A stretch of DNA of 64,000 nucleotides from a virus (taxonomy: Duplodnaviria > Caudoviricetes), in IMG/VR virus record IMGVR_UViG_3300009285_001197, positions 1,316-65,315 of that record; one strand, written 5' to 3'. Under the pieces are notes generated by a model. That model was not told where the DNA came from. It was given only the letters and a program-made list of their open reading frames with translations, and made no database searches. The translations under genes and the position numbers were made by a program. Below, one piece after another: positions 16,301 through 23,270 of this stretch (its first letter is position 1; the number at the start of each line of letters is the position of its first letter).

Positions 16301-17188
16301 TCAAACAAAATCTCCGCGCATCTTGGCTTTTGTTGACTCTGGCAGGGCGTTGAACTCTTCAAAGGTCATGTCTTCCGCACTAGGTGTTGGTGCGTTCTGA
16401 CCGGCCTTGTCACTATCCATCCCCACATCTTTCAGGCTGCCTGGCTGACGCTTGGAGGCATCCACGTTCTTAGCCACAGCTGAGCCCTTACGGTCAACAC
16501 CGCCCTGGGCCGCAGCTAGACCTGCTTTCTCAGGCGCATCACCCTTCGTGGTAGTGCGTTTCATAATCGACTCTACGGCCTTGGCCAACGCCTTTGATGG
16601 CGACAGGCGCTCGCGCTGCATCAGACCTGCCTGCTTGTCGAGGATATCATCAACGAGTTCCTGACTAAATTCTTCGTTCTCTGAATTCAGCACAGGGTAC
16701 TTCTCCTCCATGCGCTCGATGGTCAGCTCCATACGCATGTCTTCCAGCGCCTGGGCCTTATCCTGGGAGGACATGTGGCCTGCTTCTGCGATGGCGATGC
16801 GGCGGTTCAACAGGTCTGCCTGACGGGAAAGTTCTGCAGCCTTGTCCTCATTGCCGTCCAGCAGTGCAGCCCGCTCCTGCTTGCGGAGCTCGACCACGTC
16901 TTCTTCAAGCTTCCCCACGTCCGCGCTGCGATTCAGACTGGCCTGGTGCTGCTCGATCTCTGCCAGACGGCGCTCTGCGGCTTCCGCACGAGAACGCTCC
17001 TTGCTGACTTGTTCATCAAACCTGTGTTTGGGAATGAACTTGCCGTCGTCGCCGCGCGGCTGCTCTTCGGTTTTTACCTCGTCCTTGAGAGCTTCTTCAC
17101 CCTTTGACTCCTCGATGAGGGGATCAGGCTTGATGTCTTCTGTGGGCTCGAAAGTGTCTCCCCTGTCGATAACGTCCTGCTCACTCAT
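16301..17188 (-). CDS. Capsid scaffolding protein
   Basis: Acidic coiled coil with IPKHRFDE and MTFEEFNALPES..KMRGD; between portal and MCP. Confidence 0.78.
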   Translation of the reverse strand: MSEQDVIDRGDTFEPTEDIKPDPLIEESKGEEALKDEVKTEEQPRGDDGKFIPKHRFDEQVSKERSRAEAAERRLAEIEQHQASLNRSADVGKLEEDVVELRKQERAALLDGNEDKAAELSRQADLLNRRIAIAEAGHMSSQDKAQALEDMRMELTIERMEEKYPVLNSENEEFSQELVDDILDKQAGLMQRERLSPSKALAKAVESIMKRTTTKGDAPEKAGLAAAQGGVDRKGSAVAKNVDASKRQPGSLKDVGMDSDKAGQNAPTPSAEDMTFEEFNALPESTKAKMRGDFV

Positions 17189-19332
17189 TCTGAATCTCCT
17201 TGTGGTTGTGAGGATTGAGCGAAGGCTGCCGCCCTGCGCTCTTGTGCGGCTTGTACCGCTTCTTGTTCACGCATCGCCTTGTCGTGCTCATGCGCGTCTT
17301 GTTTCAGAGCGAATTCTCGCTCCTTCAAACTCTTTTCATGCTCATGCTTGTCCTGCTGTAGCGCGAACTCACGTTCTTGCTGCTCCCTTGCAGCATCAGG
17401 GTCTTCCCCGCCATCCTGTGCGCTTTGTGCGGCGATACCGACCTTTGCGGCGTCCACCTCGATCAACGCCAGCTCCCGCTCAGTCTTGGCAGCCTTGAGC
17501 CTGGCGTCAGCATTTTTGACGATAGCTTCGGCCTCCATGGTGCTGACCTCGGCCTCGTGCATACGATCTTCCAGCGCCTTCTTGCGCTGAGCTTCCGGGG
17601 AGTCCACATCTCCTTGCATCTGCTTCAGGACCTCGGCCTTGCGCATTAGCCTGCTGGCCTCGATGATGACGCTGTCAGGTATCTGCACACCCTGCTCACG
17701 CATTGCCATAACCTGGTCGAACTGTGAGTCTTCCAGGCTGGCACGGTAGGGCTGCGAGCTGATGATGATGCTGTATTCGCCGATGGTGAGGTCGTTGGTA
17801 ATCTCGCCTGTAGTCGGGTCAGTCTGGTTCACCGTCAGCGTCTCGGGTTCCTTCAGGATATCGTCGTGCGTGATATTAACCAGGCGCTCCTCGGTGTAAT
17901 ACTCCTGCACGATGTCCAGCACGTTCCTGGCCAGGATGAAGTCGCTGCGTTCGAGATTGTCCATGACCTTTGTCATGTTCATGGAACCACGCTGGCTGTT
18001 GGTCTGGATGGCCTTCGCTGCCACATCTTCCCGGCTGAAGCCCTGCATGGCGTCGTTGACGTTGCTGATACCCTTGATGTGCTCCTCGGCCTTATAGCTC
18101 AGGCGGTCGAGACCCTGTGGCGTGGCGTTCGGGGTGATCTTCTCGGCGCTGTTGATGTCGTCAAGTTCCAGCACCAGCCCCGTGGTAGCCCCTTTCGTTT
18201 CAAGCTCCTCGACGGACATGTTCTTGAGGGAACCTGCCTTGAGTTTCCAGCCGCTGTTGGCGGTAGTGTTGACCACATGCAGTTCCTGGCTGGAGACCTT
18301 GTTCAACATCTCCTGCGGCCCAATCAGGTTCTCAACGATGCCGACGGTGCGTCCATATCGGAAGTATGGGAAGTAGGGCACCACGGTGAAGTGCTTGTAG
18401 GGGCTCCAGTCATCATGCAGCACCACACTGTCTGCCGTCACTGTCCAGCGCACACGCTTGACCAGCTTCTTGGTGGTGGACAGCTGGCCTTGTGACTTCT
18501 CAAGTACACTGGCGATCTTGTTCCTATCCCAGCTTTCTGGGATAGGACGCATGTCCCCCGTCTTGATGTCTACAAAGTGCAGTTGTTTATCCAGACGTCG
18601 ATACTGACGGTCGAGTACGCGAACATTTCGTCTGACACCGTGAGGCTCAATGACCCCGTAGTAGCCTGCGAGAGGGAGCACTCCGCCGAAGCGATCCCGC
18701 ACTCGCTCAATGGAGTCATAGCCGTAGGGGAAGGCACTTCCATCCTTATCCTTGAGGTATTCACCATCGTCCTCCGAGTAGATCACCGAGATGTCCTGGG
18801 GTGTCATCCACTTCGTGATGAACACATCGTTCCAGCTGTCGGAGTCGTACTCCTCTGCGTCGGGGTCTATGACCACGTTCTTGCTGTTCAGGTTGTCAAT
18901 CCTGACCTCACCCTGCATGCTGTCAGTGAAGTCCAGACGAACGTCGAGGAAGCCTCTCGAGCGGATTGCCCCGTCTGCGAACAGCTCTGAGCGTCGCCAT
19001 GGGAGCTGGTTGTTGTGTGCAATCTGCATCCAGACCTTGGTGAGCGCCTCTGCTGTTTCCGGGCTTGCCCCCGCAGCTGGACGAAACAGGATTTCCGAGC
19101 GGTTGTAAATCTGCTCCCCCATGACTGTACCGAGGGTGCTGATGATCTTGTTGATCGTGAGGGCGGGTCTGCGTGCGATAGTCAGCGCGTTGAGGTCGGT
19201 AACTTCCCACTGCTCACCAACGAAGAACTTGTCACATTTGTCCGCTTTCTGGATGAAGTCAAGGTGACCGCGATCTCTGCAATACTGAAAGCGAACCCAC
19301 TGTTCCTGGGCGATAGCGTCATTAACTGGCAT
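17185..19332 (-). CDS. Portal protein (P22-like)
   Basis: 715 aa; FFVGEQW, RPALTINKI, GIVENLIGPQEMLNK motifs and a C-terminal coiled coil. Confidence 0.88.
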   Translation of the reverse strand: MPVNDAIAQEQWVRFQYCRDRGHLDFIQKADKCDKFFVGEQWEVTDLNALTIARRPALTINKIISTLGTVMGEQIYNRSEILFRPAAGASPETAEALTKVWMQIAHNNQLPWRRSELFADGAIRSRGFLDVRLDFTDSMQGEVRIDNLNSKNVVIDPDAEEYDSDSWNDVFITKWMTPQDISVIYSEDDGEYLKDKDGSAFPYGYDSIERVRDRFGGVLPLAGYYGVIEPHGVRRNVRVLDRQYRRLDKQLHFVDIKTGDMRPIPESWDRNKIASVLEKSQGQLSTTKKLVKRVRWTVTADSVVLHDDWSPYKHFTVVPYFPYFRYGRTVGIVENLIGPQEMLNKVSSQELHVVNTTANSGWKLKAGSLKNMSVEELETKGATTGLVLELDDINSAEKITPNATPQGLDRLSYKAEEHIKGISNVNDAMQGFSREDVAAKAIQTNSQRGSMNMTKVMDNLERSDFILARNVLDIVQEYYTEERLVNITHDDILKEPETLTVNQTDPTTGEITNDLTIGEYSIIISSQPYRASLEDSQFDQVMAMREQGVQIPDSVIIEASRLMRKAEVLKQMQGDVDSPEAQRKKALEDRMHEAEVSTMEAEAIVKNADARLKAAKTERELALIEVDAAKVGIAAQSAQDGGEDPDAAREQQEREFALQQDKHEHEKSLKEREFALKQDAHEHDKAMREQEAVQAAQERRAAAFAQSSQPQGDSE

Positions 19333-19567: not shown

Positions 19568-19787
19568 GCAGGATCACCGTTTGTGGTTCGCGGGCTTCGC
19601 GTAACCCCTGATAGAGGGTTTGAAGAAATTCCTCGGTCTGTTCGTCGAGCTTGCTGCGAATCCAGGCCCAACTTTCACTGTGCTGTGTACCAGTGTAACG
19701 GGCCAGACCTGCTTTCTGTGCCTGCACTGCGATTTCTATGGTGGGGAAGTCCGCACCAACAATGGCGTCAATCAATAGCTGTTTCAT
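19557..19787 (-). CDS. Hypothetical protein
   Basis: 76-aa ORF with ATGA coupling. Confidence 0.55.
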   Translation of the reverse strand: MKQLLIDAIVGADFPTIEIAVQAQKAGLARYTGTQHSESWAWIRSKLDEQTEEFLQTLYQGLREAREPQTVILHAK

Positions 19788-20152
19788 GACAGGAACCTCA
19801 GTTTGTAAAGTGTGCTGTCAATAAGGCCTGTGACATTGTCCACCAGTGCAGCTAAGGAGGGATCACCGCAAGTGATGGCAGTACGGTTCTTGTCAACCCA
19901 CTCACCGAGGTCTTTCAGCAGAGGCACTGACTCTGTAGGAATCGTGAAACCGGGCTTGTAACCGGAGAGCAGGCCGTAGCCACCCTGATAGGCTTCTGCG
20001 TAGGTGTCTATCAGAGGGGTGATGCCGTCGTAGAAGTCGTTGAGTGCTTTGTGCTCGGCGTAGGAACGTGTTTTCAGATGCAGGATGTGCGCAGAGGTAC
20101 GTGCATGGAAGCAACGTAGTACGAACTCGGCAGCAGCAGCACGTTCAGCCAT
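19784..20152 (-). CDS. Ferritin/Dps-like DUF5856-type protein
   Basis: HILHLKTRSYAEHKALNDFYDGI..IDTYAEAYQG...YKLRFLS. Confidence 0.72.
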   Translation of the reverse strand: MAERAAAAEFVLRCFHARTSAHILHLKTRSYAEHKALNDFYDGITPLIDTYAEAYQGGYGLLSGYKPGFTIPTESVPLLKDLGEWVDKNRTAITCGDPSLAALVDNVTGLIDSTLYKLRFLS

Positions 20153-20212: not shown

Positions 20213-22867
20213 CTACGCAGCCATGTGTCCACCACCACCACCACCACTGAGCGATGCGTTAAGTTTATCCTTCCAACTGGATAGCTCCTTAGCCTTGGCA
20301 AGCTGTGGGGCGCTCTTGCTGAGTGTGAGGCGTACACACCAGCTTGTAGCGTCCACCTGATCGTCGTGCTTGCCTGCAGGAAAACGCAGCAGCTCCTGTT
20401 CGTATGTCGGATACCAGGGCGCGTTCTTTGGGAAGTAGAGCTTGCCCAACTGCATCCGCCCTTTCAGTGGGTTCGCACGCACCATCTTGTCAGTGAAGGG
20501 TGTGAGTATTTCGTACGCAGGGTACACATGACGCTCCTGGCAGCGCTTTGTGAACTGTGAGGCGATAGCCTTCCATATCTGACCATCCTCGAAGCCGAGA
20601 AGCAGTGCACCCCACTGCAGGTAGTTGTCGATGATCGTCTCGACGATAGCGTTACCGTCATCAGAGCGGAAGCGCAGGATGTCAAGCAGGTACAGGTTGT
20701 CGTACTCGTCCTGCAGAATCGTGGCACATACCGTCCAGTCGTTCTGTTCACCTTCGGTAATGGCGAAGTCCCACGCCTGATAGATCGACCGGCCACGCCT
20801 GTCTGGATTATGCACGTAGTGAAGCATCATCTTCTTGGAGAAGTAGATACCTTCGTCGGGAATAGGGTTTTGCTGGTACAGGGCGTCCCACATACGCTTC
20901 AAACCTGCAGCAATGTAGTTGTACTTCTTCCTGAGCAGGGCCGCAGTGGAGTAACGGGCCGGGTGCAGGGCTGTGTTGTGCCTGCGGGTCATGCGAGCGC
21001 CTTCTGGGACAGGGGCTTCTGGAGGTATCTCGATAATCGTGTCATCGGTCAGGATGTACTCGTCGCCAACCTCGTTGATTGCCGGGTAGCGCACAATTTC
21101 AAAGACCTCGCCACCCATGTCTTCGTCGCCACCCTCGATAGTCTTCTTCATAGTCTGCTGAATACGTCCTGCCCAGTCATCTTCCGACCACCATGTATTG
21201 TGGCTAACCAAACCGTTGGCGATGAAGTTCTCGGTATCTTCAACCTGAACGTCGAACACTTCCTCGACGCCGTCAGGCTCGATACTGACTATCTCATCCA
21301 GCGTGAAGTCTGAGATAGTCAGCGGCGGCAAGTGCCACTGACTCATTAGCAAGATGTCCGATTCCTGCGTTGCAGTCGTTGCACAGCAGACCTCTGACTT
21401 TCCCTGTGTCGTGGCAGTGATCGACGGCCAGTTTATTCTTCCAATGAGCTGGTGAATTACCTTCCTCAGCAGGTTTGCGACAGATCGCACAACACCCACC
21501 TTGCGAGGAGTACATGTAGTCGTAGTCTGCAGAGGTGATTCCATATCTGTGCTTGAGGCGTGCGTTGCGCCGAGCAGCAATGTCTGTGTCGCTTCCTGCT
21601 CTGTGCCCGGAAGCCCACCGCTTCTTGGCATAGTGACTGTCGCAAAGTCCGCGACACTTGGCAGGTTTTTCACACCCTTCTGCAGAGCAGTTAACGCCTC
21701 TCCATTTACCCCATTGTCCTTCAAGGTTACGATTCGCTTCGCTGTAGTCAGGTGTTTTAAGCGTGTCCATGATAGCTCCCCATTAGGTGCGACAGTCAGG
21801 AACGGATGTCTCTGATTCGCTCTGACGATTTTACCAGAGTTCATCGTCATTTTGAATACAGAATCACGACCACTTTGTTTGACTGCCGCCACTCTCGTGC
21901 GTGCTAGAGTACCTCGGGCATACGTCGCTATACTATCAGACGGTTTCAGAGTGTCGATCCTGCGCTGTGTACCGTCAGCCATCAGGACAGGTGTGTCACC
22001 AGTCATGCACATTATACCCAGCACGCCGCCGCCGGGTGCCAAGCGGGAGTGCGCGGTGGAGATATACCACTCCCATGTCGCGTCGCGTTGCAACTGTGAG
22101 TCTGCAGCCTCGATGTCCTTCACCAGGTCGTCGAGGATCAGAATATGAGCACCCCGCCCGGTAATCGCAGACCCTACACCAGCCGCGAGGTAGCCGCCCC
22201 CTTCTGTAAGGTTCCAGTTCTCGGTAGATTGACTCGACGGGTCAAGGATACAGTCTGGAAACACAGCGTGGTAAGCCGGGTCTCGCAAGAGGTCGCGGAT
22301 ATAGCGTGAGAAGCTCAGTGACAGGCTTGTTGTATGGCTGGCGGCGATGATTTCCCAGTCTGGATGTTGCCCGAGTATCCATGGAGCGAAGTGCCTTGAC
22401 CCGATCTCACTCTTACCACCACGAGGCGGCATCATCAACAGCAAACGGGGCTCCTCACCGTTCTCCACTGCCTTCAGAAAGCGTTCAAGGCGACGGCAGA
22501 TGTCTTCATGAACCCAACCAGCGTCGTATTTCGGACGAAAGCGCTTGATGAAGGGTAGCAAGCGGCGTCGCGCAAGTGTGCGGAGGGCCAGTTCGGCCTG
22601 CGGGTTCGCTGTAGCAGCTGCTTTGTCGAATTTCGGTGGGGTGTAGGGTTCTGACGAGGCTTCTTCAGCTTGCTGGGTGGGTTTTTCAACAGAACTTCGT
22701 GGGTTTCTCCCTCTAGCGGGCTTCTCCACGGGTATTTCGACAGGCAACCGCCCTTCGTCGTGGCAAAACGAACACACACTACCTATGAAGGTGTCTGGAT
22801 CACGTACTGAGCTACAGGCCGGGCAGGTTTGGAAGTCAGTGCTCGACACGGCGACTCTCTCCCTCAA
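20213..22867 (-). CDS. terL: Terminase large subunit with intein
   Basis: Walker A MPPRGGKS, Walker B ILILDDLVKD, nuclease motifs AWDFA and FPAGKHDDQVDA; interrupted by a 271-aa intein. Confidence 0.93.
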   Translation of the reverse strand: MRERVAVSSTDFQTCPACSSVRDPDTFIGSVCSFCHDEGRLPVEIPVEKPARGRNPRSSVEKPTQQAEEASSEPYTPPKFDKAAATANPQAELALRTLARRRLLPFIKRFRPKYDAGWVHEDICRRLERFLKAVENGEEPRLLLMMPPRGGKSEIGSRHFAPWILGQHPDWEIIAASHTTSLSLSFSRYIRDLLRDPAYHAVFPDCILDPSSQSTENWNLTEGGGYLAAGVGSAITGRGAHILILDDLVKDIEAADSQLQRDATWEWYISTAHSRLAPGGGVLGIMCMTGDTPVLMADGTQRRIDTLKPSDSIATYARGTLARTRVAAVKQSGRDSVFKMTMNSGKIVRANQRHPFLTVAPNGELSWTRLKHLTTAKRIVTLKDNGVNGEALTALQKGVKNLPSVADFATVTMPRSGGLPGTEQEATQTLLLGATHASSTDMESPLQTTTTCTPRKVGVVRSVANLLRKVIHQLIGRINWPSITATTQGKSEVCCATTATQESDILLMSQWHLPPLTISDFTLDEIVSIEPDGVEEVFDVQVEDTENFIANGLVSHNTWWSEDDWAGRIQQTMKKTIEGGDEDMGGEVFEIVRYPAINEVGDEYILTDDTIIEIPPEAPVPEGARMTRRHNTALHPARYSTAALLRKKYNYIAAGLKRMWDALYQQNPIPDEGIYFSKKMMLHYVHNPDRRGRSIYQAWDFAITEGEQNDWTVCATILQDEYDNLYLLDILRFRSDDGNAIVETIIDNYLQWGALLLGFEDGQIWKAIASQFTKRCQERHVYPAYEILTPFTDKMVRANPLKGRMQLGKLYFPKNAPWYPTYEQELLRFPAGKHDDQVDATSWCVRLTLSKSAPQLAKAKELSSWKDKLNASLSGGGGGGHMAA
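21197..22009 (-). mobile_element. Intein (271 aa) in TerL
   Basis: Block A CMTGDTPVLMADG, block B ANQRHPFLT, blocks F/G EVFDVQVEDTENFIANGLVSHN, +1 Thr. Removal restores GGGVLGIM-TWWSEDD, the TerL motif III region. Confidence 0.93.
21294..21770 (-). CDS. Endonuclease VII-like (HNH) homing endonuclease in an alternate frame inside the intein
   Basis: LKHRYGIT..Y..MYSSQGGCCAIC...LAVDHCHDTGKVRGLLCNDCNAGIG is a complete EndoVII signature. N-terminal CSAEGC..CRGLCDSHY Zn motif; own RBS GGGGAG-ctatc-ATG. Confidence 0.9.
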   Translation of the reverse strand: MDTLKTPDYSEANRNLEGQWGKWRGVNCSAEGCEKPAKCRGLCDSHYAKKRWASGHRAGSDTDIAARRNARLKHRYGITSADYDYMYSSQGGCCAICRKPAEEGNSPAHWKNKLAVDHCHDTGKVRGLLCNDCNAGIGHLANESVALAAADYLRLHAG

Positions 22868-23270
22868 TGATTTCCAGCAATTCCTGATCAGACAGTTGCG
22901 AAAACTGCTGCTGTACGCGCTGCTGGTTGCCTGTGAGTTCGATGATCTTCTTCTCTGGTTCGTAGAAGCCTAAGACTTTTGATATTTCTCTCGCTCCGGC
23001 AATCATTGCTGTAGGGTCTGCCATGGTGCGTGCTATCTGGATGGCATCGAGCATGACTTCGATCATGTCGGCGCGTCTGACCTGGGTGGCGCTGCTGAGT
23101 TCTGAACGGGCAAAGTGAAGTGCATGAGCAACATCATCCGAGCGTTCAATCACAGCTGGTGGCGCTGCATACCCCGCAGCCTTGGCAGCTTTGCTTTTAG
23201 GTTCACCGTCGAGTACTGCTTCGACGTAAGCGTCCTGTTTCTCGGTGAGTTTGGATTTTTGTCTTGGCAT
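22836..23270 (-). CDS. terS: Terminase small subunit
   Basis: KLTEKQDAYVEAVL...AAKAAGY HTH-like motif; directly upstream of terL. Confidence 0.8.
   Translation of the reverse strand: MPRQKSKLTEKQDAYVEAVLDGEPKSKAAKAAGYAAPPAVIERSDDVAHALHFARSELSSATQVRRADMIEVMLDAIQIARTMADPTAMIAGAREISKVLGFYEPEKKIIELTGNQQRVQQQFSQLSDQELLEIIEGESRRVEH

What the first reader, a model, noticed from the sequence alone, without database searches (positions are those of the whole stretch)
21197..22009. TerL intein whose homing endonuclease is encoded out of frame as an independent overlapping gene
Seen: the 271-aa intein (C...HN/T) has no LAGLIDADG or HNH motif in its own frame; between blocks B and F it reads as Thr-rich, motif-free sequence. 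The same DNA in another frame on the same strand (21770-21294) encodes a complete 158-aa EndoVII/HNH nuclease (CAIC..VDHCH..VRGLLC..CN) with an N-terminal Zn motif. Its own SD (GGGGAG-5 nt-ATG) is embedded in the intein's NGEL codons, and its stop falls just before block F. Both frames stay open over 477 nt. Established: intein endonucleases are normally in-frame domains at this position. Inference: a dual-coded selfish element in which homing is uncoupled from splicing; standard annotation would miss it.
Basis: partly seen in the sequence, partly recalled or inferred. Interest (0 to 1): 0.88.

Follow-up and report, generated by a model that had tools for sequence, protein, structure and literature searches.

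The report
Terminase intein hiding out-of-frame nuclease gene
A phage DNA-packaging gene carries a self-splicing protein insert (an intein) whose middle also encodes, in a shifted reading frame, a separate DNA-cutting enzyme that probably spreads the insert; the layout is real and under selection, but it was first described in a 2025 preprint, so this is one more member of a known kind.

Summary
TerL (20213-22867, minus strand, 884 aa) carries a 271-aa intein (21197-22009). A 158-aa Endonuclease_7/HNH ORF (21294-21770) lies inside it in the -1 frame.

It is not chance:
- P = 0.011 that the intein frame stays open, given the phage's codon usage.
- 0 stops in 5232 nested codons, against 122 in 3829 codons of free-standing homologues.
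- 75 of 76 unique related intein regions keep the same frame offset, as do 16 of 62 loci in prokaryote genomes.

Wobble variability follows the intein frame for residues 1-90 and 226-271, and the HNH frame for 91-225. The nested start codon overlaps an intein Trp codon.

The intein is mobile. Its presence needs at least 13 gains or losses on the extein tree. Intein and extein trees disagree (AU p = 0.0001). Two ~99% identical phages differ by its precise presence.

Gosselin et al. (bioRxiv 2025) reported out-of-frame EndoVII-like endonucleases in actinophage TerL inteins. This scan's index lists 38 notes holding the search words in at least 37 genomes; the 8 shown describe the same layout. This is a new member, in a groundwater virus that is not an actinophage. 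Expression, cleavage and splicing are untested.

The parts
20213..22867 (-). terL (large terminase) precursor gene, 884 aa, open throughout. It lies between terS (22836-23270) and the portal gene (17185-19332).
   Evidence: ORF; Terminase_6N E 6e-9, Terminase_6C E 7e-9, Intein_splicing E 1.5e-15; PHROG 38 terminase large subunit E 2e-98; neighbours: terS-like, portal, major head protein.
22010..22867 (-). N-extein (TerL residues 1-286), ending ...GGGVLGIM.
   Evidence: Intein-less alleles run uninterrupted across this junction.
21197..22009 (-). Intein, 271 aa: Cys1 ... His270-Asn271, followed by Thr+1.
   Evidence: Alignment A2 invariant columns: C1, H68, D253, N271; H270 in at least 90% of rows. 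Foldseek top hits are mini-inteins, e.g. 6frg at E 4e-10. phmmer matches the Npu and Ssp DnaB inteins.
21710..22009 (-). N-terminal splicing lobe of the intein (residues 1-100), confidently folded.
   Evidence: pLDDT 84-97 per 10-residue block. Wobble variability is in the intein frame for residues 1-90.
21338..21709 (-). In-frame 'linker' of the intein (residues ~101-224): Thr/Ser/Ala-rich, no predicted fold. It is kept only stop-free and sits at the canonical endonuclease insertion point of mini-inteins.
   Evidence: pLDDT 29-57 across these blocks; residues 101-104 and 110-216 are below 50. Amino-acid identity in this frame is 0.27-0.53 per 15-codon window over nested-ORF codons 15-150, against 0.50-0.88 in the HNH frame. 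The Npu DnaB intein alignment jumps from TerL residue 381 to 513.
21197..21337 (-). C-terminal splicing lobe (residues 225-271, blocks F and G).
   Evidence: pLDDT 84-98 from about residue 231. Wobble variability returns to the intein frame from residue 226.
21294..21770 (-). Nested 158-aa ORF in the -1 frame: an endonuclease VII-like HNH (beta-beta-alpha-Me) nuclease and presumed homing endonuclease.
   Evidence: Pfam Endonuclease_7 E 4e-22. PHROG endonuclease VII families. AlphaFold pLDDT 84.5. Foldseek top hit is T4 EndoVII 1e7l at probability 1.00 but E 0.011; no PDB match reaches E 0.001. Profile against PDB: 1e7d at E 5e-9.
21776..21781 (-). Shine-Dalgarno-like GGGGAG, 5 nt upstream of the nested ATG, inside the intein's Gly77-Glu78 codons.
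   Evidence: A core GGAG/GAGG/AGGA motif occurs at -18 to -4 in 54 of 75 relatives.
21767..21770 (-). Nested start codon ATG (21770-21768), overlapping the invariant intein Trp81 codon TGG (21769-21767).
   Evidence: W81 is invariant in A2. The first start codon overlaps a TGG of the intein frame in 71 of 75 relatives; a candidate start does so in 75 of 75.
21630..21689 (-). N-terminal Cys/His-rich putative Zn motif of the nested protein (residues 28-47: C28, C33, C43, H46).
   Evidence: C28, C33, C43, H46 and Y47 are invariant in A1. Zn and DNA binding are inferred.
21348..21536 (-). Catalytic beta-beta-alpha-Me core of the nested protein (residues 79-141): CxxC ... DHxH ... CxxCN.
   Evidence: It aligns to T4 EndoVII residues 9-70. 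C94, C97, D117, H118, H120 and C133 are invariant; C130 and N134 are present in at least 90% of A1 rows.
21294..21296 (-). Nested stop codon TGA, embedded in the intein's Asp-Glu codons, 32 codons before the intein C-terminus.
   Evidence: In relatives the stop lies 13-33 codons before the intein end.
20213..21196 (-). C-extein (TerL residues 558-884), beginning TWWSEDDW.
   Evidence: (Terminase_6C).

Best explanation
This is a mobile class-1-type mini-intein inserted in the ATPase domain of the phage large terminase, at GIM|TWW. Its homing endonuclease is not an in-frame domain. It is a separate 158-aa gene of the endonuclease VII/HNH family, overprinted in the -1 frame on the intein's central linker.

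Proposed mechanism:
1. The terL mRNA is translated in two ways. Ribosomes reading terL make an 884-aa precursor. In it, about 125 residues of stop-free, unstructured filler connect the two lobes of a complete HINT fold. The intein then splices itself out to give a 613-aa terminase.
2. Other ribosomes initiate internally at the ATG built on the intein's invariant Trp codon. The SD-like GGGGAG sits in the Gly-Glu codons. They make the free nuclease.
3. During co-infection the nuclease cuts or nicks intein-less terL alleles at the conserved insertion site. Repair from the intein-bearing copy transfers intein and nested gene together.

Shown here: the double open frame, its conservation, the frame-specific selection, the conserved initiation signals and catalytic residues, and the sporadic, phylogenetically incongruent distribution.

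Inferred: internal initiation, nuclease activity and target, and splicing.
For: **Anatomy**
- Searches give the ORFs, frames and family hits.

**Fold**
- The intein model has two confident lobes (residues 1-100 and about 231-271, pLDDT 84-98) and a linker at pLDDT 29-57.
- It matches mini-intein structures: 6frg at E 4e-10, with target TM-scores of 0.75-0.86 for the Ssp and Npu DnaB and Mtu RecA mini-inteins.
- The nested protein folds at pLDDT 84.5 and matches T4 EndoVII.

**Frame kept open by selection**
- P = 0.011 from the window's codon usage; 0 of 965 control windows are open.
- Nested copies have 0 stops in 5232 codons in the +1 shift. 45 free-standing homologue regions have 122 in 3829 codons.
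- The +2 shift is alike in both sets, at 6.4 and 5.9 stops per 100 codons.

**Conservation of the layout**
- 75 of 76 unique intein regions keep the layout, with HNH identity down to 46%. The set includes 3 cultured actinophages.
- 16 of 62 loci in prokaryote genomes or MAGs keep it too. Their record titles name Sulfuritalea, Bradyrhizobium, Oribacterium, Anaerolineae and others.

**Selection on the nested frame**
- Pairwise nucleotide difference at HNH codon positions 1/2/3 is 0.30/0.25/0.51 (n = 33).
- Amino-acid identity over the same nucleotides is 0.62 in the HNH frame, 0.40 in the intein frame and 0.375 in the unused frame.
- The phase of wobble variability switches at intein residues ~90 and ~226.

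**Initiation signals**
- ATG or GTG sits at the same alignment position in the 33 closest copies.
- The start overlaps an intein Trp codon in 71 of 75 relatives by the first-start rule, and in 75 of 75 for a candidate start.
- A core SD is present in 54 of 75.

**Active-site integrity**
- Residues equivalent to T4 C23, C26, D40, H41, H43, C58, C61 and N62 are invariant or present in at least 90% of rows.

**Mobility**
- 27 intein-plus and 38 intein-minus exteins need at least 13 changes on the extein tree.
- L098 (plus) and L129 (minus) are 99.8% and 99.0% identical in the aligned flanks. There is no mismatch within 300 nt upstream or 326 nt downstream of a precise ~810-nt difference at GIL|TWW.
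- The window's intein groups with inteins from other extein clades. The AU test rejects the pairing expected from the extein tree (p = 0.0001).
Against: - There is no direct evidence that the nested ORF is translated, that its product cuts the empty terL site, or that the intein splices.
- 21 of 75 relatives lack a core SD by my motif rule. The SD-like bases lie in Gly/Glu codons that the intein may conserve for its own reasons.
- The within-pool synonymous shuffle is not significant for a single copy: 29% of draws stay open.
- The 76 relatives are not independent samples, so counts across them overstate the number of independent events.
- Presence/absence pairs cannot tell gain by homing from precise loss by recombination with an empty allele.
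- One relative (L015) has lost 7 residues of the nuclease core while both frames stay open. Openness of the nested frame alone therefore does not prove an active enzyme.
- I named the AU-test pair from the extein tree after I had seen pairwise identities.
Confidence: 0.85

Rival explanations
1. The nested endonuclease VII-like protein is not purely selfish. It is expressed from the late terL message and also serves the phage, for instance as a debranching or Holliday-junction nuclease that clears DNA for packaging. From memory, T4 endonuclease VII (gp49) does this. It could instead act as a terminase-associated HNH factor.
For: It belongs to the Endonuclease_7 family. It is embedded in the packaging gene and would be co-transcribed with it. 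More distant relatives are free-standing 'endonuclease VII' genes in many phages. The roles of T4 gp49 and of HNH packaging factors are recalled, not taken from a call.
Against: - Nearly identical phages exist with and without the element.
- 38 of 65 related terL alleles lack it.
- Only the Zn/beta-beta-alpha-Me core (T4 residues 9-70 of 157) is shared; the rest of T4 EndoVII is not matched.
- Intein and extein trees are incongruent, as expected for a selfish element.
Confidence: 0.07
2. The nested ORF is a decaying relic of a free-standing endonuclease gene that once invaded a mini-intein. It is no longer expressed, and it stays open only by hitch-hiking on selection that keeps terL open.
For: The authors of the 2025 preprint raise this possibility (section 15). 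One relative, L015, carries a 7-residue deletion in the nuclease core.
Against: - Selection on terL acts on the other frame and cannot keep the nested frame open.
- The unused third frame has 6.4 stops per 100 codons.
- Third-position variability and amino-acid conservation follow the nested frame.
- Start codon and catalytic residues are conserved down to 46% identity.
Confidence: 0.05
3. The nuclease is made by programmed -1 ribosomal frameshifting from the terL frame, as an N-extein/N-intein/HNH fusion, rather than by independent initiation.
For: The nested frame is -1 relative to terL in every copy.
Against: - In the window a TAA in the nested frame lies only 12 nt upstream of the ATG. That leaves no room for a classical X XXY YYZ slippery site, and I see none by eye.
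- The upstream stop-to-start distance varies among relatives, while the ATG/GTG itself is fixed.
- I ran no formal frameshift-signal search.
Confidence: 0.02
4. It is an assembly or sequencing artefact: an ordinary in-frame HNH intein put out of frame by two compensating indel errors.
For: Two relatives (L067, L176) do show scrambled frames around the intein.
Against: - The same offset occurs in 75 of 76 unique viral sequences, in 16 prokaryote-genome loci and in 3 cultured, finished phage genomes.
- The terL frame is open through the region, against 1% odds.
- Contig pieces from three further groundwater runs (X3, X5, X7) match this stretch with no differences. X1 spans all of it but may be the window's own source.
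Confidence: 0.01

Closest known systems
[quoted passage not shown]
   Same: - The host gene is the same (terL).
[quoted passage not shown]
- The nuclease family is the same.
- The in-frame middle is unstructured in both.
- Homology is direct: the window's nested protein is 50-54% identical to the stretches inside terL of Angelicage, Affeca, Keitabear, Sedona, Vincenzo and Phlyer, at the same offset.
   Different: - The window is a 65-kb uncultivated virus found in groundwater metagenomes. Its GC is about 0.43-0.61, and its extein resembles Pseudomonas phage terminases over short stretches. It is not an actinophage.
- The closest copy in a prokaryote assembly is in a Sulfuritalea MAG.
- In the parts of the preprint I read, I did not see the frame-phase switch, the Trp-anchored start codon or the counts in metagenomic viruses.
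[quoted passage not shown]
   Same: An intein whose endonuclease is encoded in an overlapping, different reading frame. [quoted passage not shown] The authors propose secondary invasion of a mini-intein by an endonuclease gene.
   Different: The host is cellular and the host gene is dnaX. According to the 2025 preprint, the dnaX case is an antisense LAGLIDADG. Here the nuclease is a same-strand EndoVII-like HNH.
ShiLan insertion: hidden out-of-frame HNH in a phage DNA methylase (Arsenault et al., Genes 2025, PMC11855218; abstract and outline only)
   Same: An in-frame, stop-free insertion in a phage gene that hides an HNH endonuclease ORF in another frame.
   Different: The authors found no splicing domain in ShiLan. 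Here a complete HINT splicing domain flanks the nested gene.
Fractured genes: split inteins with a free-standing endonuclease gene between the halves (Dassa et al., NAR 2009, PMC2677866; search-listing abstract, plus what the 2025 preprint says of it)
   Same: A free-standing-type endonuclease gene sits at the endonuclease position of an intein and is translated on its own.
   Different: There the host gene and intein are split into two ORFs. Here the terL frame is kept open through the nested gene, so the intein stays contiguous.
Canonical bifunctional inteins (in-frame LAGLIDADG or HNH domain)
   Same: The insertion point for the endonuclease is the same, between the N and C lobes of the HINT fold. 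The presumed homing life cycle is the same.
   Different: The endonuclease is not part of the intein polypeptide. A canonical in-frame LAGLIDADG intein does occur at another terL site in relatives L109 and L110.
Phage T4 endonuclease VII (PDB 1e7d, 1en7, 1e7l)
   Same: The Cys4 Zn site and the D-H-x-H ... N beta-beta-alpha-Me core align.
   Different: Only T4 residues 9-70 of 157 are matched. The nested protein has a different N-terminal Cys/His-rich region and lacks the rest of T4 EndoVII.

Membership tests
Intein (HINT splicing domain, class 1 type) | N-terminal nucleophile (Cys/Ser/Thr at position 1) | tested here: met
   Cys1 is invariant in 30 of 30 rows of A2.
Intein (HINT splicing domain, class 1 type) | Block B histidine | tested here: met
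   N65-x-R67-H68-P69-F70 is invariant in A2. The block name is recalled.
Intein (HINT splicing domain, class 1 type) | C-terminal His-Asn followed by a Cys/Ser/Thr +1 extein residue | tested here: met
   ...VSHN|TWW in the window. N271 is invariant and H270 is present in at least 90% of rows.
Intein (HINT splicing domain, class 1 type) | HINT fold | tested here: met
   Pfam Intein_splicing E 5e-17, above the cut-off. Foldseek hits the Ssp and Npu DnaB and Mtu RecA mini-inteins at probability 1.00.
Intein (HINT splicing domain, class 1 type) | Precise in-frame insertion in a conserved host protein, with intein-less alleles | tested here: met
   38 of 65 related terL alleles lack it. The L098/L129 pair shows a precise presence/absence.
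Intein (HINT splicing domain, class 1 type) | Protein splicing activity | not testable with these tools
   Needs expression of the precursor.
Endonuclease VII / HNH (beta-beta-alpha-Me) nucleases, Pfam PF02945 | Profile match above the curated threshold | tested here: met
   78.3 bits against a 23.6 cut-off, profile positions 2-81 of 82.
Endonuclease VII / HNH (beta-beta-alpha-Me) nucleases, Pfam PF02945 | Cys4 Zn site and D/H/H/N catalytic residues | tested here: met
   They align to T4 C23, C26, C58, C61 and D40, H41, H43, N62, and are invariant or present in at least 90% of A1 rows. The roles of the T4 residues are recalled.
Endonuclease VII / HNH (beta-beta-alpha-Me) nucleases, Pfam PF02945 | Remainder of T4 EndoVII (the part that, from memory, makes the junction-resolving dimer) | tested here: not met
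   Only T4 residues 9-70 of 157 align.
Homing endonuclease (functional class) | Site-specific cleavage of the element-free allele and promotion of transfer | not testable with these tools
   Indirect support only: sporadic distribution, incongruent trees and a near-identical plus/minus pair.
Inteins with an out-of-frame EndoVII-like endonuclease (Gosselin et al. 2025) | Endonuclease ORF on the same strand, in frame 3 relative to the intein, within the endonuclease region | tested here: met
   Offset 2 in the window and in Angelicage, Phlyer and Vincenzo.
Inteins with an out-of-frame EndoVII-like endonuclease (Gosselin et al. 2025) | Sequence homology to the described members | tested here: met
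   The nested protein is 50-54% identical (E 1e-34 to 3e-44). Intein N and C parts are 45-53% and 67-70% identical to the copies in those phages.
Inteins with an out-of-frame EndoVII-like endonuclease (Gosselin et al. 2025) | In-frame reading of the middle has no recognisable fold | tested here: met
   pLDDT below 50 for residues 110-216. No Pfam family above its cut-off apart from Intein_splicing.
Canonical bifunctional intein | Endonuclease domain in frame with the splicing domain | tested here: not met
   No endonuclease family in the intein frame.
Split intein / fractured gene with intervening endonuclease gene (Dassa et al. 2009) | Host gene and intein split into two ORFs | tested here: not met
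   terL is one 884-aa ORF. The terL frame is open through the region in 75 of 76 relatives.

The most novel reading that the evidence does not exclude
The nested endonuclease VII-like protein is more than a selfish homing enzyme. It is made from the late terL message at the time of packaging, and it also acts on replicated phage DNA, for instance by debranching DNA or by cutting competing co-infecting genomes at terL. The phage that carries it would gain an advantage. That would explain why one overprinted design, with its start codon welded to the intein's Trp codon, has persisted across phages whose carriers are labelled Actinobacteria, Proteobacteria, Firmicutes and Chloroflexi.
Probability: 0.08. 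Interest if true: 0.7.

Novelty: new member of a known kind. Interest (0 to 1): 0.4.

Why it matters
The case shows how a selfish element can be assembled from two independent parts: a self-splicing mini-intein and a free-standing nuclease gene. They share the same DNA in two reading frames. This supports the 'splicing first, endonuclease later' view of intein origins.

It also has a practical side. Gene callers skip the nested gene, and such inteins get filed as decaying or mini-inteins, so intein-linked endonucleases are undercounted.

What this window adds to the 2025 report:
- The design is not confined to actinophages.
- It is one old family with a fixed frame offset.
- The nested start codon is built on the intein's invariant Trp codon.
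- Selection hands over cleanly from one frame to the other at intein residues ~90 and ~226.
- Near-identical phages with and without the element exist in metagenomes, which gives ready-made substrates for a homing test.

Tried and rejected
**Window identity.** Megablast of window 8000-30000 against 50,697 phage records found no match. The window is an IMG/VR record rated 100% complete. I made no host assignment. A Sulfuritalea MAG holds the closest copy in a prokaryote assembly, but that is only a hint.

**Within-pool synonymous shuffle.** It is too conservative to be informative for one copy (29% open). I replaced it with resampling from genome codon usage and with free-standing homologues as a control.

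**Expression evidence.** No RNA holder was listed. Laying four runs gave only contig pieces identical to the window and no joints, so it showed no co-existing intein-less allele. Two loose ends in one 578-nt contig look like another organism's relative. None of this bears on expression. The parts without cover mean nothing.

**Literature.**
- mBio 2016 (PMC5050341): a term search found no mention of Pipefish, Phlyer, Vincenzo or an out-of-frame endonuclease.
- Three full-text searches found the 2025 preprint, the 2026 dnaX preprint and the ShiLan paper. They found no earlier report of a same-strand out-of-frame EndoVII-like endonuclease in an intein.
- The preprint's supplements (intein cluster tables, predicted structures) were closed. 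They may list counts or members that bear on how many such inteins were already known.

**TerL motif at the insertion site.** phmmer of TerL against PDB sequences hit only inteins and no terminase structure. Naming the insertion site an ATPase motif therefore stays an inference.

**-1 frameshift reading.** I rejected it by eye only. No formal search was run.

**Not run.** Complex prediction, the search for homologous proteins, the search of protein representatives and the protein-atlas search; no claim here depended on them.

**Rows dropped before counts.**
- Searches counted only loci with hits to the nested protein and to both intein ends on the plus strand. Truncated contigs such as L016, L082 and L104 dropped out, and identical intein regions were merged.
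- Searches kept the best 80 of 284 and of 191 relatives.
- The extein tree used 65 distinct sequences that cover TerL extein residues from at most 100 to at least 585.
- One search left out L176, the broken-frame locus, so it used 45 of the 46 non-nested genome loci.

Full report
**1. What is there**

On the minus strand, one 884-aa ORF (20213-22867) is the large terminase. It matches Pfam Terminase_6N and Terminase_6C and PHROG 38 at E 2e-98. It lies between a terS-like gene and the portal and major head genes.

Residues 287-557 (22009-21197) are an intein...GIM|CMTGDTPV ... LVSHN|TWW.... In its own frame the only Pfam family above its curated cut-off is Intein_splicing. No endonuclease family appears.

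The 158-aa ORF at 21770-21294 is offset by 2 nt from the terL frame, which is -1 or 'frame 3'. It is a clear Endonuclease_7 family member (E 4e-22; PHROG endonuclease VII families).

**2. Is the double open frame more than chance?**

- I kept the nested protein fixed and drew its codons from the window's own usage. The terL frame stayed open in 1.1% of 20,000 draws (mean 3.5 stops). None of 965 same-sized windows in the phage's long genes is open in that shift.
- Free-standing homologues from prokaryote genomes carry 122 stops in 3829 codons in that shift. Only 4 of 45, mostly short, regions are open. The 33 closest nested copies carry 0 stops in 5232 codons. The other shift is equally closed in both sets.
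- A shuffle within the ORF's own codon pool is much less striking (29% open). I take this to mean the codon pool itself has been shaped by stop avoidance.

**3. Relatives**

tblastn against cultured phages put the best hits (50-54% identity) inside the terL genes of Gordonia phages (Angelicage, Affeca, Keitabear, Sedona and others) and Mycobacterium phages (Vincenzo, AlanGrant, Phlyer, Pipefish and others). In the three records I opened, the match is again offset by 2 from the annotated terL start, and no separate CDS is annotated.

In IMG/VR, 284 of 288 pattern-matched stretches encode a relative, and 80 were kept. Together with the terL search, these gave 76 unique intein regions that have both intein ends. 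Of these, 75 have the same offset with terL open through the nested gene, down to 46% nested-protein identity. The exception, L067, has scrambled frames.

In prokaryote assemblies, 16 of 62 loci have the nested layout. Their titles name a Sulfuritalea MAG (75% identity), Bradyrhizobium, Oribacterium, Dysosmobacter, Anaerolineae and others. One (L176) is broken and 45 are free-standing genes. More distant phage relatives are free-standing genes annotated as endonuclease VII.

The window itself is an uncultivated 65-kb virus record. Its GC is about 0.43-0.61. It has no close cultured relative, and its sequence is held by groundwater metagenome runs. It is not an actinophage.

**4. Which frame does selection see?**

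- Among the 33 closest copies, nucleotide differences at nested-frame codon positions 1/2/3 are 0.30/0.25/0.51.
- Over the same nucleotides, amino-acid identity is 0.62 in the nested frame and 0.40 in the intein frame. In the unused frame it is 0.375.
- Along the intein, the most variable codon position is the intein's third for residues 1-90. It becomes the intein's second (the nested frame's third) for residues 91-225, and the intein's third again for residues 226-271.

The two genes therefore divide the DNA between them. Where they overlap structurally (the nested protein's first ~10 and last ~13 residues), the intein frame wins.

The structure predictions agree with this:
- The intein has two confident lobes and a linker at pLDDT 29-57. 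It superposes on mini-inteins.
- The alignment to the Npu DnaB mini-intein jumps across exactly this stretch.
- The nested protein folds with pLDDT 84.5 apart from its first ~20 residues. Its best matches are T4 endonuclease VII and Hpy99I, with weak Foldseek E-values but probability up to 1.00. The profile search gives 1e7d at E 5e-9.
- The residues that align to T4's four Zn cysteines and to D40, H41, H43 and N62 are invariant or nearly so. The roles of the T4 residues are recalled.

**5. How is the nested gene expressed?**

The 33 closest copies have ATG or GTG at the same alignment position. Across all 75 relatives, the first start codon of the nested ORF overlaps a TGG Trp codon of the intein frame in 71, and a candidate start does so in all 75. 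That Trp (W81) is invariant in the intein alignment.

A core SD motif lies 4-18 nt upstream in 54 of 75, mostly in the Gly-Glu codons. In the window a nested-frame TAA lies 12 nt upstream of the ATG. This argues for independent initiation rather than frameshifting. It is an inference; nothing here shows translation.

**6. Is it mobile?**

- On a tree of 65 exteins (27 with the intein, 38 without), the intein's presence needs at least 13 changes, all forced by well-supported branches.
- L098 and L129 come from different samples. Their aligned flanks are 99.8% and 99.0% identical, and they differ by a precise ~810-nt presence or absence at GIL|TWW. There is no mismatch within 300 nt upstream or 326 nt downstream, apart from the last base of the Leu codon at the junction.
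- The window's extein groups with L115, L013 and L119. Its intein groups with those of L006, L007, L008, L009, L088, L010, L015 and L011, whose exteins lie elsewhere. The AU test rejects window plus L013 as an intein clade (p = 0.0001).

This is what a homing element would leave, but it cannot separate gain from loss.

**7. What is known**

The 2025 preprint by Gosselin, Arsenault and Gogarten describes four non-canonical intein architectures in actinophages. [quoted passage not shown] The preprint places it among terL and other host proteins, names Angelicage, Affeca, Keitabear and Sedona as one cluster, and proposes invasion of an intein by a free-standing endonuclease gene.

A 2026 preprint reports an out-of-frame endonuclease in the cyanobacterial dnaX intein (abstract). 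A 2025 paper reports a hidden out-of-frame HNH in a phage methylase insertion without a splicing domain (abstract).

This scan's own index lists 38 notes that hold the search words, in at least 37 genomes. The 8 shown describe the same layout. I reached the preprint before I looked at those notes, and they agree with my reading.

**8. Verdict**

The element is real, conserved, under two-frame selection and very probably an active homing element. It is a new member of a recently described kind, found outside the actinophages. I found the following details here and did not see them in the parts of the preprint I read:
- the fixed offset across many host groups;
- the Trp-anchored start codon;
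- the clean hand-over of selection between the frames;
- the near-identical plus/minus pair.

These details raise the interest somewhat. The central surprise is already in print.

Noticed in passing
L098 2252-3207 (also L129, L140, L143): Relatives carry a second ~942-nt in-frame insertion in terL just before Walker B (GRG|CFSR...LLAHN|CHILVVDD). Its in-frame reading has intein-like ends but no Pfam hit. A 314-aa ORF in another frame carries Pfam HNH PF01844 (E 4.6e-5) and double zinc ribbons. This is a second, different out-of-frame endonuclease intein in the same gene.
   Followed up: partly
L109 1825-2835 (also L110, L153): A third terL insertion site near the P-loop (about window TerL residue 152) holds a ~1-kb insertion with an ordinary in-frame LAGLIDADG_3/Hom_end domain. 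This terminase lineage is therefore invaded at three sites by three endonuclease types.
   Followed up: partly
L067 1900-2740; L176 2177-2999: Two relatives have the N-terminal intein lobe in the same frame as the nested HNH, and the terL frame is broken. They may be decaying copies, indel errors, or steps toward an in-frame fusion.
   Followed up: no
L015 2501-2950: The nested HNH of L015 has an in-frame 7-residue deletion that removes KVRGLLC, including one Zn cysteine. Both reading frames stay open. This is possibly an inactivated endonuclease at an early stage of decay.
   Followed up: no
window 19784-20152 (-): A 122-aa ORF between terL and the portal gene matches PHROG 858 'starvation-inducible transcriptional regulator' (E 6e-23). 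It is an unusual passenger inside the packaging module.
   Followed up: no
window 22750-22867 (-): The N-terminus of TerL, as called from the TTG at 22867, holds a CPAC...CSFC pair that looks like a small zinc ribbon ahead of the ATPase domain. The ORF overlaps the end of terS by 32 nt, so the true start is uncertain.
   Followed up: no
L098 3398-3400 vs L129 3398-3400: The only difference within ~300 nt of the intein junction between the near-identical plus/minus pair is the third base of the last N-extein codon (Leu, A versus T). It could be a co-conversion mark or a change that protects against the nuclease.
   Followed up: no
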